NCBI GenBank assembly: GCA_036785375.1
Contig: JAWMAR010000293.1
Coordinates: 1,922,001 to 1,986,000 of the forward strand
Direction of reading: 5' to 3'
DNA length: 64,000 nt
From: Leucoraja ocellata
Taxonomy: Eukaryota
The position numbers are program-made. How positions within the stretch are numbered: the stretch's first letter is position 1; every line of letters starts with the position of its first letter. This document shows positions 51,001-57,000 of this stretch, piece after piece.

Positions 51001-54000
51001 AGTTATAAAATTATGTGGGAGTAGCAGCCTTCAATTCAAAACAAGTCAGTCCTTAGAATATATGCTCCAAAGTACATTGAAAGCAGTAATCAGTTTGAAA
51101 GTAAAAAGACACCTTTGCAAACAGACTTGATTAACAAGAATGGTGTTCTACAAAAATCCCCTAAAGTGCTGGAGTAACTCAGCAGGTGAGGCAGCATCTC
51201 TGGAGGACATGGATAGGTGACATTTCAGGATGGGACACTTCAATATATGTTAATTGGGCATATATCAAACCAAAATTCTTCATCACAAGTTCAAACCATT
51301 GTGATATTCGTGAAGGACCTTTCCAGACCAGAATTATTTTGTCATTTGCAAATCAAACATGGTCATTGGCATATTTGTCTATCAATAATTGGGATGTTTG
51401 TGTACTCAAGAGAGTCAGCCCTCACAACAGTAATTTGGGCTTTCACATTCTCTGCCCTTGGAAGCTCTTAGATCATCCATATGAATTACTGTGCCCCAGC
51501 AAAGGTGTTTAAATATTCAGACAAAAACCTCGACACACTGCAGTTCGCTTACCGCCACAACAGATCAACGGTGGATGCAATCTCACTGGCTCTCCACTCC
51601 GCTCTGGAACACTTGGACAACAGAAACTCATTTGTCAGGCTGTTATTCATTGACTTTAGCTCGGCGTTTAACACCGTCATCCCCTCCAAGCTGTTTACCA
51701 AGCTCTCAGATCTGGGTCTCTGCGCATCCCTCTTAGCGATAAACTTGCAAAGATTGATCGGGAGAGGTTACTTGCATGTAAAATAACACCTAGCAAGTGG
51801 GAAGCTTTTAAAGATGAGATGGGGAGAGTTGGAGTGAAGACAAGGATGACTGGATTAGGGAACCCTGATTGATAAAGGATATTAAGCCTGTGATCATGCA
51901 AAAGGAGTTATGACAGGTACAGGCAGCTGGGATCAAGTGAACCCCTTGAGTATAAGCAGAAAATCAGGAGGCACAAAGAAGACATGAGATAGCTCTGGCA
52001 GATAAGGTAATGGAATCCTAAGGGATTCGACAAATATTTTAAGAATAAAAGGATAATTAGGGAGAGAATAGGTTTCCTTAAGGATCAATGTGGCCATCTA
52101 AATGTGGAGCCACAGGAAATGGGCAAGGTCTTAAATGCATATTTTTCATCTGCATTTACCCTGGAGAACATTACGGAAATCAATGAATTAAGGGAAATTA
52201 ATAGTGATGCCTTGGAACATACCCACATTTAAAAACAGTAGGTGCTGACAGTCTTAAAGCTTATAAAGATGGATAAATCTCTGGGGCATGCCAATGTGTA
52301 TCCTATTACATTGTGGGAAGTTAGGGAAAATTTACATTGGGTTGGCAGAGATATTTACATCATCTTTATCCACGGACAAGGTACTGCGAATCATGGCCAA
52401 TGTGCCTTAATTTAAAAAGGCTGCAAAAACAAGCCAGGAAATTATAAGTCAGTGAACCTAACTGACATCAGTTGTGGGAGAGTTACTGGGGGAAGATTCT
52501 GAGGGACTGGATCTACCAGCATCAAGGACTGATTAGGGTTAGCCAGCATGACTTTGTCCATGGGAAATTATGTCTCATAAATTTGATTGTAACTTACAAA
52601 ATTCTTAAGGGGTTGGACAGGCTAGATGCAGGAAGATTGTTCCCGATGTTGGGGAAGTCCAGAACAAGGGGTCATAGTTTAAGGATAAGGGGGAAATCTT
52701 TTAGGACCGAGAAGAGGAAAACTTTTTTCACACAGAGAGTGGTGAATCTCTGGAATTCTCGACCGCAGAAGGTAGTTGAGGCCAGTTCATTGGCTATATT
52801 TAAGAGGGAGTTAGATGTGGCCCTTGTGGCTAAAGGGATCAGGGGGTATGGAGAGAAGGCAGGAACAGGATACTGAGTTGGATGATCAGCCATGATCATA
52901 TTGAATGGCGGTGCAGGCTCGAAGGGCCGAATGGCCTACTCCTGCACCTATTTTCTATGTTTCTATGTATTGTTTGAAGAGGACACAAAAAAGATTGACG
53001 AGGCAGGGTGATGGACATTTGGATGTTGTCCACGTGGACTTTAGGAAGGCCTTTGAGAGGATGGTAGTGGAAGGTTGTTTTACACATTTTGGATGCCTGT
53101 GACCAAGTGATGTGCAGTAGGGATCGGTGCTGTGTCTGTTTTCCTCTCCTCATCTACATTGTTTGAATGACAATGTAACTGATATTAATTGATGTTAACT
53201 CGTAACTGATGAATATGATTGTGGACAACACCAAAAGTGGTATAGTGGATAGTGAAGAGGGTTCTCGTAGATTACAATGGGATGTAAGTCAAATGGGGAT
53301 GCAAGTCAAACAATGGCAGGTAGAATTTAACTCGGACAATTCTGAGGTGCTGCACTTTAAGTTAAACTAAGGTAGCTCTTACACAGTAAATGGTAGGTCT
53401 CTGGAGAGTGTTGTTAAACAGAGACCCAGGTGTACTGGTATAGACACATTATGCTGGAGTAACTCAGCAGCACAGGCAGCATTTCTGGATAGAATAGGTG
53501 GTGTTTTGGATCGAGATCTTTAAGTTCCCCGAGATCGGCGTCGCAGATAGACAGGGTGCTGAAGCAGCATGTTGGCATACTTGCATTCATTAGTTAGGGA
53601 ATTGAGTATAGGAATTGGGAAGTCATGTTACTAGGACAAGCTGTTACTGAAACCACACTTGCAGTATTATGTAGAGTTTTAGTTGCACAGCTATAGAAAG
53701 GATGTCATATCTGGAAAGGGTGAAGAAAAGATTCACACAGATATTTCCGGGACTGGAGGGCTTGACGTGCATAGAGAGGCTGGGATATTTCCCCAGAGTG
53801 TAGGGAGCTGAGTAGTCTTCTTGTAGAGGTATATGAAATCATGATGGACAGAGATCAGGTCAATTAAAGCACGTAATAATTGATGAGTTTTTAACCTCTA
53901 TATTTGTTTACAATCTCCTTTAGGGCATACATACACGTCAGTGCCATGTTTAGCTTTAAAACCAAACTGGTTATCTACTATCAGTATAATGAACCCTTTT

Positions 54001-57000
54001 AGGACCAGTTTTGAGTCTACACCCACATTGGGGAGCTCAAGGCATAGCTTGTCAAACTTCTCTGGATTAAGCTTGTTCAAAATGCCTTTGACTTTCCAGA
54101 AGATTCCATCTTGCTAGGGGAGGATTCCATTTTCTCCAGGGGAGGAGAGTCCAAAACTAGAGAGAATACAGTTTCCCTCCATAATGTTGGGGACAAAGAT
54201 CTATCATTTATTTATTTGCCTCTTTATTATTATTAAACTTTATTTCAGACTCAAGGTGCAGACAAGAGACAACATTACATAAAATACATTGCATATAAAA
54301 CACTATAAAATACATATAGTGCATAAATTACTTATGAGCATCATAAAATATACAAAAGCACAATACATGATTTAAAATCCAGAATTAAAAGAGAGGTCAG
54401 TATCCTACGACGAGACAATACCAATGTCTCCACAACTGGCATTAGTGTAGTGTTATACCTTATGTTTGGTAAGACCAAGATAATTATATTTTCAGAGTCA
54501 TTAATCCTGCAAATAAATGTATACATATGATTTCTTAGGATAGCTTCTAAAGTACTGACTCCTGCAGCCACAAACATTTCACCAGCACTACACCATCTAG
54601 GCTTCCTTAGCAGTGTTCTCATTGCATCATTATAGGCCACCTTTAGTCTCTGTGAACTTGTCTTTCTGTAGTTAGACCACAGGTGTGCAGTATTGAGTGA
54701 TGCACAATATGCTCTAAACAGAGACATCTTCACCACATCTGTACACGCACCAAACTTACGTAAGAGAATATTCACCTGTACATACATCATCTGGCGTTGC
54801 CTATAAATATCCTCATCATCTGTAATTTGTTCTGTAATAAAATGTCCAAGATATTTTACCTTATTACAGACACTAAGATTATTGTCAGACAATTTAAAAT
54901 CAGGACATTTTAGACATTTACCCCCTTTGGTTCTGCAGATCATAACAGCACTCTTACCAGCATTATATTTGATATCATGTTCTACACCATACACAGAACA
55001 TATAGTAAGGAGCTGCTGGAGACCAGCGCTAGGTGGACTAAAGACCAGAAGATCATCTGCATACATAATATGGTTCACTACGGTATTACAAATCATACAC
55101 CCAGTATTACAGGTTTTCAATTGCTTGGACAGATCATCAATATAAAGATTAAAAATGACTAGGGACAAAATCCCCCCCTTGTCTGACACCATTGCTAACC
55201 CCAAATGGGGCTGACACCCTATGGCCCCATTTTACTTGCATAATCTGATGGGCACACCAGTAAGCCAGAATTCTCACAATGTATTTAGGCACCCCTCTTC
55301 GCCTCAATTTAACAAACAACTTTCTATGATTAACACGATCAAAGGCTTTGGAAGCATCAATAAAGCACATAATAATTGATGAGTGTTTACCTCTATATTT
55401 GTTTACAATCTCCTTTAGGGCATATATACACGTCAGTGCCATGTTTAGCTTTAAAACCAAGCTGGTTATCTGTGGAGTTAACAAACTCATTTAATCTATC
55501 CAGCAGAATTATTTCTAGGATTTTTGACAACATGCTGGCTAAAGCTATGGGCCTGTAATTATTTAGGCTGCCTACTTTACCAGCTATGTCCTTAATAACC
55601 GGCACTAGCAGAACAGACAACATTGAGTCTGGTAACAAACCATGAATCATAAAGCCAGTAAAAGGGCTTTCTCACGGTGCGACCTGAAGCAAGACTTAAC
55701 AAGACTTAACATCGTGGGAACCTCCTGCGATAACAGTACGGCATTCATGGACCACCGAGGATCTCCGTGGCGCTAACGGCAGGTAGTCGTGTAACTTGTT
55801 AAGGTCGGGACAAAATTCAAACATTTTTGAATTTCTTCAAGAGTGACTTGAGCAGCATTGCAACATTGTATGAACGCAGATGCCAGTGCGATATCCGTAA
55901 TGACTCTTGCGGGTACCGTGGGAACTCCTGCGAACGGTAATATGGGTTGAGCACAACACCGGCTGAAAGGAGGCCATCGAGAAGCAGATGTACGCCTTTG
56001 AAAATTTTTTGGCATTGGCTTTTTTAAATGTTTTATGTAATTTATGTTTTTATGTGTCTTGAGTTCTATGTGCAAATCCTTTTCAGTTCCAGGTATCAGA
56101 GCGTTGGAAGCAGGATGCCAGAGGCCACTCAGCCACTCTTCGGGCCAGTGCAGGGGTGCGAGCGGATGGCCAGCGTAGACCACTGGCAGCAACGTTACCC
56201 CACCCACGTGGCCGATGTGGCCCTGGTCTGCCGGCAGCTGTCCGAGCGATGGCTACAGGTCAGTGCCCCCCTCCCCTCCCTCTCCAACGCTCACACACCC
56301 CCCCCCCCCCGTCACTCCCCTCCCCTCCCCATTCCATCACTCACGCCCCCCCCCCCATCACTCAATCCCCATCAACGTGCCTTGATGTGTCAGCAGCTGT
56401 CCGAGCACCACCTGTGGGTGTAGAGCTCCAACCCCCGATCCCCTCCCTCTCCCCCACCCGGGAGAGAGGGAGGGGAGGTGGGTGGGAGTGGGGAAGTGAG
56501 CGAGGGGGAGAGATGGGAGGGGGGGGGGGGTAGAGGGAGAACAGTTGACTGTAAACTATCACAGCTGGAATCTTGCTTTGCTTTACTGTGCGCTCCCTCT
56601 GCTGATGCGGAATACCTCCCTACTGGACTCCTCGGTCAGTGGGGTTTTCCACTGGTCTGGCAATGAGCAGATGACCAAGTTCCAGATGGCTTGCACCATG
56701 GCAGACGCCTTCAGACTCCCCAATGCCCACCTGCGCCCAGTAAGTGTGTGTGGGTGGGGGGGCGGGGGGCAGGCTAGAGTGGCTGAGTGGCCTCTGGCAT
56801 CCTGCTTCCAACGCTCTGATACCTGGAACTGAAAAGGATTTGCACATAGAACTCAAGACACATAAAAACATAAAACATTTAAAAAAGCCAATGCCAAAAA
56901 CTTTTCAAAGGCGTACATCTGCTTCTCGATGGCCACCTTTCAGCTGGTGTTGTGCTCAACCCATATTACCGTTCGCAGGAGTTCCCACGGTACCCGCAAC

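What the first reader, a model, noticed from the sequence alone, without database searches (positions are those of the whole stretch)
53885..54113. Chimeric fragment: EIF4G2 coding sequence fused to a copy of the neighbouring LINE
Seen: 47 codons of the EIF4G2 MIF4G domain run straight into an ~85-bp LINE RT segment through the shared sequence AGATAA. That segment (53893-53977) closely matches 55389-55471 of the RTEX-like element 1.5 kb away, and both have the same frame-breaking lesion after HGTD. The whole unit interrupts a CR1 3' region. From memory of the human gene, the fragment crosses exon junctions, implying an mRNA origin. Inference: microhomology-driven template switching between a host mRNA and a local defective LINE, or RNA-templated break repair.
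Basis: partly seen in the sequence, partly recalled or inferred. Interest (0 to 1): 0.66.

Follow-up and report, generated by a model that had tools for sequence, protein, structure and literature searches.

The report
Two-part copied patch filling an old DNA break
A decayed 252-base insert inside an old CR1 repeat is stitched from a piece of the neighbouring broken LINE and a piece of the EIF4G2 gene, and it looks like a scar of break repair, which is a known kind of event and has no function.

Summary
On the minus strand, 54113-53973 encodes 47 codons of EIF4G2 (MIF4G start). It is closest to cartilaginous-fish EIF4G2: 41 of 47 residues match Callorhinchus. This runs without a gap into a LINE reverse-transcriptase piece.

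Both LINE copies lack the same 2 nt after HGTD, whereas 3 of 3 named relatives read through in frame. The two parts overlap in AGATAA (53971-53976). The unit, about 53865-54116, splits a plus-strand CR1. It has no target-site duplication, no poly(A) tail and no LINE 3' end, and 3 filler bases (CTA) sit at one side.

The best reading is a templated patch laid into a chromosome break by microhomology-guided template switching. This is the same kind of event as class 2 templated-sequence insertions and endonuclease-independent LINE insertions. It is not a classical retrocopy.

Local origin of the LINE piece is well supported. Whether the templates were RNA or DNA is unresolved. Whether the frameshift is family-wide could not be tested either.

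The insert is an old relic with no function. It is a new member of a known kind and of modest interest.

The parts
53640..53864 (+). Left part of the host CR1 3' region (decayed ORF2 C-terminus, ...EVYEIMMDRDQVN)
   Evidence: Frame translation. blastn matches 53819-53864 to the CR1 copy at 15923-15968. Alignment with 10 other CR1 pieces of the window.
53860..53864 (.). Join CR1/LINE: TCAAT is shared by the CR1 flank and the LINE donor (55357-55361). Only the AAT is backed by other CR1 copies. An extra T follows at 53865.
53865..53970 (-). LINE reverse-transcriptase piece, an internal part of the element (with the shared bases, 53860-53976). It carries the same 2-nt loss after HGTD (plus-strand ACACGTC at 53933-53939).
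   Evidence: 94.9% over 117 columns to 55357-55471. 4 substitutions and 2 one-base indels. tblastn of the neighbour's ORFs hits only here.
53971..53976 (-). Six-base overlap AGATAA (plus-strand TTATCT) shared by the LINE donor and EIF4G2 (Val-Asp-Lys codons). This is the template-switch point.
   Evidence: Asp-Lys is seen in 9 of 9 named EIF4G2 references printed.
53973..54113 (-). EIF4G2 piece: 47 codons, residues 69-115 of Callorhinchus EIF4G2, at the start of the MIF4G domain. No stop codon, and 6 amino-acid changes from the cartilaginous-fish sequence.
54114..54116 (.). CTA: three bases assignable to neither EIF4G2 nor CR1 (filler, or a mutated Arg codon).
   Evidence: Sequence, CR1 alignment, codon list.
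54117..54163 (+). The host CR1 resumes here with little or no loss of CR1 bases. It holds a 14-mer (54120-54133) that matches the first EIF4G2 bases (54099-54112) at 12 of 14.
   Evidence: 6 of 5000 shuffles and 20 of 5000 random window pairs reach 12 of 14.
54229..55671 (-). Neighbouring defective LINE, 3' part. The RT is spread over three frames (55396-55671, 55152-55490, 54344-55231). The tail has AATAAA and (TAA)n at about 54225-54244. The donor segment is 55357-55471 and the lesion is at 55428-55434.
   Evidence: (RVT_1).
57209..58100 (-). Upstream part of the same LINE, 5'-truncated, with no endonuclease domain found. It is separated from the 3' part by an inverted-repeat insert.
   Evidence: A named relative, P0188, reads across the gap.

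Best explanation
The 252 bp at about 53865-54116 are a two-part templated patch that sealed a chromosome break inside an old CR1 element in the germline of a cartilaginous fish.

Proposed course of events (inferred, not shown):
1. The 3' end of the broken plus strand (...GGTCAAT) paired by 3-5 bases with sense RNA of the defective LINE whose 3' end lies about 115-365 bp away. That RNA may have been a read-through or nascent transcript of that copy.
2. A reverse-transcribing polymerase copied about 112 nt of the LINE RNA.
3. The growing DNA end (...TTATCT) then jumped to AGAUAA in an EIF4G2 mRNA, and 141 nt were copied.
4. The end received 3 extra bases and was joined to the other side of the break, next to a 12-of-14 look-alike sequence.

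This is the route described for endonuclease-independent LINE insertion and for class 2 templated-sequence insertions. The product has no function: it has no start codon, it is preceded and followed by stop codons, and it has since decayed.

What is shown: the parts, their order and strand, the overlaps, the missing hallmarks of classical retrotransposition, the shared derived lesion, and the local source. What is inferred: that a break occurred, the direction of synthesis, and that the templates were RNA.
For: Anatomy:
- The EIF4G2 and LINE parts lie on the same sense strand in the order 5'-mRNA piece, then LINE piece-3'.
- They overlap by 6 nt. The chance of 6 nt or more at a random join is 0.0013.
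- A 3-5 nt overlap lies at the CR1/LINE join.
- Three filler bases and a 12-of-14 homeology lie at the third join. This homeology is reached by 6 of 5000 shuffles and 20 of 5000 random window pairs.
- No direct repeat flanks the unit, and there is no A-rich or (TAA)n tail.
- The LINE piece ends about 1.1 kb short of the element's 3' end.
- The CR1 flanks abut with only about 9-12 nt between them in 10 other CR1 copies, so little target sequence was lost.

Local source:
- This is the only other copy of the LINE family in 64 kb, at both DNA and protein level.
- It lies 1.5 kb away on the same strand.
- It shares a 2-nt deletion absent from 3 of 3 named relatives.
- Each copy also carries changes of its own, so both are old.

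Parent gene: cartilaginous-fish EIF4G2. The piece matches Callorhinchus at 41 of 47 and Stegostoma at 40 of 47. The QDG start is seen only in those 2 of the 9 references printed.

Known parallels:
- Class 2 TSIPs have no TSD and no poly(A), show microhomology and non-templated bases, and use partial LINE-1 and cDNA templates. Experimental inserts were 73-414 bp (PMC5110952, parts 1-2 read).
- Non-classical L1 insertions are 3'-truncated, lack a TSD and a tail, and 15 of 21 carry 4-312 bp of non-L1 DNA (PMC1920257, passages).
Against: - RNA templates are not demonstrated. I could not see the EIF4G2 gene structure of this or any species, so loss of an intron is unproven.
- Among 118 named fish EIF4G2 sequences, isoform break-points lie 14 residues before and about 34 residues after the fragment, with none inside it. 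The one exception is an odd gene model (P0040) with a 26-residue insert after ...LTPEK. This test cannot see constitutive introns.
- A template only 1.5 kb away in cis is also the signature of DNA-based replicative template switching.
- The neighbouring LINE is 5'-truncated and frameshifted. It therefore needs an outside promoter to be transcribed and an outside enzyme to be copied.
- The 12-of-14 homeology is kept in two copies rather than consumed, which simple annealing does not predict.
- The CR1/LINE overlap is certain for only 3 nt.
- No empty site from a related genome was available, so the break and its exact edges are inferred from paralogous CR1 copies.
- The EIF4G2 half carries 6 or more changes against 1-2 on the patch lineage of the LINE half. 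The difference is not significant (Fisher p 0.06-0.30).
Confidence: 0.5

Rival explanations
1. The same patch was built from DNA templates. In this reading a broken or stalled 3' end underwent microhomology-mediated template switching (MMBIR/FoSTeS type, or polymerase-theta-type synthesis). It copied first from one locus and then from the other: the neighbouring LINE DNA 1.5 kb away, and EIF4G2 DNA from either the gene (if the piece lies in one exon) or a processed pseudogene.
For: - Microhomology or homeology is present at all three joins.
- One template lies 1.5 kb away in cis on the same strand.
- The LINE next door also holds a 1.56-kb inverted-repeat structure, and the CR1 may carry a further internal deletion about 50 bp from the patch. 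These may be signs of a rearrangement-prone spot.
- There is no positive evidence for an intron inside the fragment.
- The EIF4G2 half is, if anything, more decayed than the LINE half, as expected if the template was already a pseudogene (not significant).
Against: - No EIF4G2 sequence lies anywhere else in the 64 kb, so the second template must have been distant.
- Both parts lie in transcript sense and in the order expected for one cDNA strand. For DNA templates this is only a 1-in-2 coincidence (inference).
- The inserts are longer than typical polymerase-theta fills (recalled).
- P0040 hints at an exon border at PEK|FDK inside the fragment.
Confidence: 0.3
2. It is a classical chimeric retrocopy. 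Target-primed reverse transcription with a jump from LINE RNA to EIF4G2 mRNA (a bipartite chimeric retrogene) was later trimmed by deletions that removed the LINE 3' end, the tail and the target-site duplication.
For: The order 5'-cellular RNA piece, then LINE piece-3' on one strand, joined in a microhomology, is the layout of template-switch chimeras (layout recalled).
Against: - The LINE piece stops about 1.1 kb before the element's 3' end.
- There is no tail and no duplication.
- The CR1 flanks fit together with about 9-12 nt between them, as in other CR1 copies. That leaves no room for a later deletion that would have had to end exactly at the original target edges.
Confidence: 0.05
3. The chimera was formed elsewhere and is one copy of a repeated composite element, or arrived with a duplicated segment. 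On this reading its closeness to the LINE copy is a coincidence.
For: The genome itself could not be searched. The LINE piece is not identical to the neighbour: 4 substitutions and 2 indels.
Against: - None of the 37 short proteins found with the 71-aa chimeric frame covers more than 83% of it.
- The family has no other copy in 64 kb.
- The derived lesion is shared with the copy next door.
Confidence: 0.1
4. It is an assembly or library artefact that joins unrelated reads.
For: Repeats are prone to misassembly, and no reads were available.
Against: Both halves are decayed relative to their sources: 6 amino-acid changes at positions invariant in the named references, and 6 differences from the neighbour LINE. 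A fresh chimera of reads would match its sources. The CR1 flanks also continue each other.
Confidence: 0.03

Closest known systems
Class 2 templated-sequence insertions (TSI/TSIP; Onozawa and Aplan, PMC5110952, parts 1-2 of the text read)
   Same: A copied patch of a few hundred bases from elsewhere. It has no target-site duplication, no poly(A) signal or tail, and shows microhomology and non-templated bases at the joins. The templates include partial LINE pieces and cDNAs. The donor is kept.
   Different: It is described in human cells and human polymorphisms, whereas this one is an old fixed relic in a cartilaginous-fish-like genome. It is two-part, and one part comes from a LINE copy only 1.5 kb away rather than from a distant region. 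RNA origin is not shown here.
Endonuclease-independent / non-classical LINE-1 insertions (Sen et al. 2007, PMC1920257, passages read; Morrish 2002 as cited in PMC5110952)
   Same: A 3'-truncated LINE fragment without a tail or duplication, with microhomology to the flanks, accompanied by non-LINE 'extra nucleotides' (4-312 bp in 15 of 21 loci).
   Different: The LINE is not L1. Its clade was not determined (only Pfam RVT_1). The LINE piece is only about 112 nt. The endonuclease site preference of this family is unknown, so that criterion cannot be scored.
Bipartite chimeric retrogenes made by template switching during LINE reverse transcription (recalled; no paper read for this)
   Same: A cellular RNA copy is fused 5' to a LINE copy on the same strand.
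   Different: Those carry the LINE 3' end, a poly(A) tail and target-site duplications. This one has none of the three.
Microhomology-mediated break-induced replication / FoSTeS (recalled; PMC6902434 and PMC13065848 seen as search listing and abstract only)
   Same: Several joins with microhomology or imperfect homology, and a template close by in cis.
   Different: Those use DNA templates and usually produce larger copy-number changes. The second template here is not nearby.
Processed pseudogene of EIF4G2
   Same: It is an EIF4G2 coding sequence away from the gene, and it is decayed.
   Different: It covers only 47 of about 900 codons, taken from the 5' third of the mRNA. It has no 3' end, no tail and no duplication.

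Membership tests
Class 2 templated-sequence insertion (break-repair patch) | No target-site duplication | tested here: met
   No direct repeat flanks 53865-54116 (flanks read).
Class 2 templated-sequence insertion (break-repair patch) | No poly(A) tract or polyadenylation signal at the 3' end of the insert | tested here: met
   The sense-strand 3' end of the insert (53860-53880) runs straight into CR1.
Class 2 templated-sequence insertion (break-repair patch) | End-joining marks: microhomology, non-templated bases, small or no deletion | tested here: met
   6-nt and 3-5-nt overlaps, CTA filler, and CR1 flanks nearly contiguous.
Class 2 templated-sequence insertion (break-repair patch) | Donor sequence still present at its own locus (copied, not moved) | tested here: inconclusive
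   The LINE donor is present at 55357-55471. The EIF4G2 donor locus could not be examined.
Class 2 templated-sequence insertion (break-repair patch) | Template was RNA (spliced, or sensitive to RT inhibitors) | not testable with these tools
   No eukaryote genome or gene structure was available. Searches give only indirect hints, and literature searches found nothing on exon borders.
Non-classical (endonuclease-independent) LINE insertion | LINE part truncated at its 3' end | tested here: met
   The piece corresponds to 55357-55471, whereas the element's 3' end is at about 54229.
Non-classical (endonuclease-independent) LINE insertion | No duplication and no tail | tested here: met
Non-classical (endonuclease-independent) LINE insertion | Target differs from the endonuclease's preferred cleavage site | not testable with these tools
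   The site preference of this LINE family is unknown.
Non-classical (endonuclease-independent) LINE insertion | Empty orthologous site in a related genome | not testable with these tools
   Only paralogous CR1 copies could be compared.
Template-switch chimeric retrogene (target-primed) | 3' part is the 3' end of a LINE/SINE with its tail, and the unit is flanked by duplications | tested here: not met
   Internal LINE piece, no tail, no duplication.
Processed pseudogene of EIF4G2 | Covers the mRNA 3' end with poly(A) and is flanked by duplications | tested here: not met
   Only residues 69-115 of 892 are present, and there is no other EIF4G2 match in the window.
EIF4G2 (origin of the coding piece) | Closer to EIF4G2 than to EIF4G1/EIF4G3 | tested here: met
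   E=3e-18 against 1.5e-4 or weaker. The 118 named hits examined from the 120 listed are all EIF4G2.
   Only Pfam RVT_1 and unnamed RVT_1 clusters were obtained. The named relatives come from a fish, a krill and a tubeworm.

The most novel reading that the evidence does not exclude
The patch is a germline record of transcript-templated break repair in a cartilaginous fish. The broken end was first extended on the read-through RNA of the LINE copy sitting just upstream on the same strand, that is, on a transcript acting in cis at its own locus. It then moved onto an abundant housekeeping mRNA (EIF4G2), which the 12-of-14 look-alike at the far end of the break helped to hold in place. That would extend RNA-patch repair with two successive RNA templates to a non-mammalian vertebrate and to a non-L1 setting.
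Probability: 0.25. Interest if true: 0.55.

Novelty: new member of a known kind. Interest (0 to 1): 0.3.

Why it matters
The patch does nothing for the organism. Its value is as a clean natural example of how breaks are sealed with copied sequence. All three joins are readable, one donor sits next door and carries a private lesion that marks it as the source, and the other donor is a conserved gene whose exon structure can decide between RNA and DNA templates. If RNA origin is shown, it adds a non-mammalian, non-L1 case to the small set of templated patch insertions. It also suggests that transcripts made at or near the break are preferred templates. For annotation it is a warning: a 47-codon MIF4G match here is not a gene or an exon.

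Tried and rejected
1. Exon test from short database proteins. Many of the 37 hits to the 71-aa frame cover only 51-55% of it, and I first read that as exon-limited ORFs. I rejected this reading because full-length named fish proteins with ...KLILKGIILLIVD show the same truncated coverage (72% of 47 aa; sequences). The likely cause is low-complexity masking. The 37 hits are unnamed and could include human or other mammalian EIF4G2 pieces, so I did not fetch or compare them.

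2. Exon borders from isoform break-points in 118 named fish EIF4G2 sequences. Borders appear 14 residues upstream of the fragment and about 34 residues downstream, with none inside. The test cannot see constitutive introns. One gene model (P0040) hints at a border at PEK|FDK.

3. Literature on EIF4G2 exon structure or pseudogenes. The listings contained nothing usable.

4. Family-wide frameshift test. There were 76 hits. The best was 75-76% identical at 87% coverage, and the highest identity was 81% on a partial match. The commonest coverage was 87% (20 of 76), which ends at HGTD. Five hits cover 91-97% but at only 62-69% identity. No near-identical family member was found, so the test has no power.

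5. Search for other EIF4G2 exons in the window: none.

6. Search for the CR1 continuing beyond the LINE 5' end: none on the plus strand.

7. Rfam scan of 50-60 kb: no family, so no snRNA or SINE partner.

8. Is the region an intron of the minus-strand LBP/BPI-like gene? I scanned 127 of the 295 minus-strand ORFs of 45-89 aa, those below 30 kb. No further exon was found. The other 168 were not scanned, so this is left open.

9. A 16-of-20 match between the EIF4G2 piece (54092-54111) and the LINE (57470-57489). I judged it to be at chance level for a 5-kb self-comparison.

10. Different ages of the two halves: not significant.

11. The prokaryote genome collection was not scanned because it is irrelevant here.

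Full report
**What is there**

Read on the minus strand, 54113 to 53898 is one open frame: QDGIFWKVKGILNKLNPEKFDKLCLELPNVGVDSKLVLKGFIILIVD, then NQFGFKAKHGTDVYVCPKGDCKQI, then a stop. A TAG stands directly before it, and the frame contains no Met.

The first 47 residues are the start of the MIF4G domain of EIF4G2:
- The solved human DAP5 chain 4iul_A matches at E=3e-18. EIF4G1/3 chains reach only 1.5e-4 to 4e-3.
- Pfam MIF4G matches profile positions 3-41 at E=3e-4, below the curated cut-off as expected for so short a piece.
- Among the longer database proteins, 257 of 264 candidates passed E<=1e-5 and 120 were listed. The best named hits are Callorhinchus milii (87% identity, full coverage) and Stegostoma tigrinum (85%).
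- The opening QDG is shared only with those two cartilaginous fishes among the nine named sequences I printed. The other seven read HDA.
- tblastn of the two cartilaginous-fish proteins against the whole window gives one hit only. Residues 69-115 of the Callorhinchus protein map to 54113-53973 at E=7e-18, and the next best hits have E about 0.8-0.9.

So this is an isolated 5% of the gene. It is not an exon of a local EIF4G2 gene.

The fragment differs from the cartilaginous-fish sequence at six residues (R6W, R9K, T16N, L28P, I41F, L43I). Each is one nucleotide step away. All six positions except I41 (Val in the human chain) are constant in the named references and in the human chain. The piece is therefore a decayed copy.

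**The LINE piece**

blastn of the insert against the window finds one other match: 53860-53976 against 55357-55471, 94.9% over 117 columns, E=4e-47.

On the minus strand the two copies differ by four substitutions and two one-base indels.

The partner is the reverse-transcriptase region of a minus-strand LINE:
- Its coding sequence is now spread over three frames: 55396-55671, 55152-55490 and 54344-55231. All three match Pfam RVT_1.
- Its 3' end carries AATAAA and (TAA)n near 54225-54244.
- A 1.56-kb inverted-repeat insert interrupts it at 55667-57229.
- It resumes at 57209-58100. No endonuclease domain was found upstream.

I could not confirm the label 'RTEX-like'. Pfam and the Atlas give only RVT_1.

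**The shared lesion**

Three of three named relatives read HGTD-(M/Q)-CI(F/Y)A(L/I)KE in a single frame. They come from Monopterus albus, Meganyctiphanes norvegica and Ridgeia piscesae. The window LINE matches them up to HGTD in one frame and from CIYALKE in another.

Both the LINE and the patch read GAC-G-TGT, two bases short of a codon. The lesion is therefore derived, and the two copies share it.

Each copy also has changes of its own. The patch keeps the NQF of the relatives where the neighbour has NQL. The neighbour keeps CIY where the patch has CMY. So both descend from one already-broken sequence and have drifted apart since.

**The joins**

1. LINE/EIF4G2. The plus-strand hexamer TTATCT (AGATAA on the sense strand) stands at 53971-53976 in the patch and at 55466-55471 in the LINE.
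 - On the EIF4G2 side, A-GAT belongs to the Val and Asp codons actually present.
 - The final AA is what any Lys codon supplies, and Lys follows in 9 of 9 named references printed.
 - A random join has an overlap of 6 nt or more with probability 0.0013.
2. CR1/LINE. TCAAT (53860-53864) is shared with the LINE donor (55357-55361). The other CR1 copies support only the AAT, so the overlap is 3-5 nt. An extra T follows.
3. EIF4G2/CR1. After the Gln codon come three bases (CTA, 54114-54116) that I can assign to neither side, and then CR1 resumes.
 - Nineteen bases apart, and both retained, lie a CR1 14-mer (54133-54120, minus strand) and the first EIF4G2 bases (54112-54099). They agree at 12 of 14 positions.
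 - That level is reached by 6 of 5000 shuffles of the two 40-mers and by 20 of 5000 random pairs of window 40-mers.
 - This test was made after seeing the match.

**The host site**

The flanks are the 3' region of a plus-strand CR1 (translation). 53819-53864 and 54128-54168 match one CR1 copy at 15923-15968 and 15977-16016. In an alignment with ten other CR1 pieces of the window, only about 9-12 nt lie between the two flanks.

So about 252 bp (53865-54116) were inserted with little or no loss of target. No direct repeat flanks the unit. It has no A-rich or (TAA)n tail. The LINE piece stops about 1.1 kb before the element's own 3' end.

**What it is**

These features rule out an ordinary target-primed LINE insertion, a processed pseudogene and the classical template-switch chimeric retrogene. 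All of those keep a 3' end with a tail and carry duplications (the layout of the last is recalled, not read).

The features match two described classes:
- **Class 2 templated-sequence insertions.** These have no duplication and no poly(A), show microhomology and non-templated bases, and use partial LINE-1 and cDNA templates. Experimental inserts were 73-414 bp. The authors note that they are what an endonuclease-independent event using non-LINE RNA would look like (PMC5110952, parts 1 and 2 of 4 read).
- **Non-classical L1 insertions.** These are 3'-truncated, lack a duplication and a tail, and show microhomology to the flanks. Fifteen of 21 carry 4-312 bp of non-L1 DNA (PMC1920257, 12 of 27 passages read).

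I therefore read the unit as a copied patch that sealed a break.

**Local source of the LINE piece**

The LINE family has no other copy in the 64 kb, either as DNA or as protein, whereas CR1 pieces are everywhere. The one copy lies 1.5 kb away on the same strand and shares the derived lesion. A local source is therefore well supported.

It is not proven. The database search with the 92-aa frame found 76 relatives, but none closer than 75-81% identity. I therefore could not see whether other members of the family carry the lesion.

**RNA or DNA templates**

This stays open. I give RNA about one half and DNA about three in ten.

For RNA:
- Both pieces lie in transcript sense, in the order expected for a single cDNA strand. 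That strand would start on LINE RNA at the left break end, jump at AGAUAA, and finish with a few untemplated bases.
- The patch site lies 115-365 bp downstream of the LINE's 3' end on the same strand. A read-through transcript of that copy would therefore cover it (inference).

For DNA:
- A template 1.5 kb away in cis, with microhomology at every join, is also what replicative template switching gives.
- The LINE is 5'-truncated and frameshifted.
- I found no positive evidence of an intron inside the fragment.

I could not check it, because no eukaryote genome collection was on hand and two literature searches gave nothing usable.

In 118 named fish EIF4G2 sequences, isoform break-points mark likely exon borders 14 residues before and about 34 residues after the fragment, with none inside. 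In one search, 116 of the 118 carry the block GILNKLTPEKFDKLCLEL contiguously. Of the two exceptions, one has a single substitution. The other (P0040, Sinocyclocheilus grahami) has a 26-residue insert after ...ILNKLTPEK and then repeats ILNKLTPEK before FDKL. That would be easiest to produce if an intron lies at PEK|FDK, but it is a weak lead.

The two halves do not differ significantly in decay.

**What stayed unchecked**

- Further copies of the chimera in this genome were not sought.
- The 37 short proteins found with the chimeric frame are unnamed and could include human or other mammalian EIF4G2 pieces. I used only their table rows (none covers more than 83% of the frame) and did not fetch them.
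The LBP/BPI-like exons at the left end of the window were only scanned as separate ORFs.
- Supplementary files were not needed and were not opened.

**Verdict**

This is a microhomology-guided, two-template patch with a local LINE source, but the mRNA origin is unproven and the route is break repair rather than classical retrotransposition. It is a non-functional relic and a new member of a known kind.

Noticed in passing
window 55667-57229: A 1.56-kb inverted-repeat structure sits inside the LINE. Its arms are 55667-56139 and 56776-57229, 96-100% complementary, around a C-rich/G-rich core. It is flanked by a TTTTAyTGGCT-like duplication. A named relative reads straight across the gap, so this is an insertion (a foldback or DNA transposon) or a palindromic rearrangement.
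   Followed up: partly
window 54164-54227 and 20881-20943: A 64-bp module, 84% alike in the two places, ends in ...CATTTATTTATTTGCCTCT. At 20.9 kb it follows a CR1 C-terminal (GYG) region. At the locus it follows the CR1 RTRGH region directly. It may be the CR1 3' end, in which case this CR1 has an internal deletion of a few hundred bases only about 50 bp from the patch. Alternatively it is the extreme 3' end of the minus-strand LINE. I could not decide which.
   Followed up: partly
window 54225-54244: The CR1 3' end (plus strand) and the LINE 3' end (minus strand; AATAAA plus (TAA)n) abut tail to tail. No plus-strand continuation of the CR1 was found beyond the LINE 5' end.
   Followed up: partly
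window 1638-2060 and 3916-4275, minus strand: Two ORFs match the C-terminal domain of the LBP/BPI/CETP family (E=9e-6 and 5e-13). They are likely exons of a host gene on the minus strand. The upstream exons were not found among the ORFs scanned, and the exons were not joined.
   Followed up: partly
window, many sites (e.g. 5845-6075, 8955-9187, 12109-12342, 15924-16166, 22643-22833, 26149-26374, 33075-33347, 35532-35780, 41764-42003, 52466-52873, 61960-62112): The window is dense in CR1 3' fragments from at least two subfamilies, on both strands. The C-terminal motifs looked typical of cartilaginous-fish CR1 to me, but that is recalled and not tested.
   Followed up: no
window 35737-36993, plus strand: A 419-aa open frame has no Pfam match. 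It lies in a stretch with strong GC skew (-0.41) and 52% GC, and overlapping open frames occur in other phases. It is probably a simple or low-complexity repeat.
   Followed up: no
window 21144-21380 (minus strand) and 37911-38300 (minus strand): A weak DDE_3 transposase match (E=1e-4, below the cut-off) and an ALKBH8_N match (E=6e-8). Both are likely remnants of other mobile elements.
   Followed up: no
window 54092-54111 and 57470-57489: A 16-of-20 match between the start of the EIF4G2 piece and an upstream part of the LINE. I judged it to be at chance level for a 5-kb self-comparison.
   Followed up: partly
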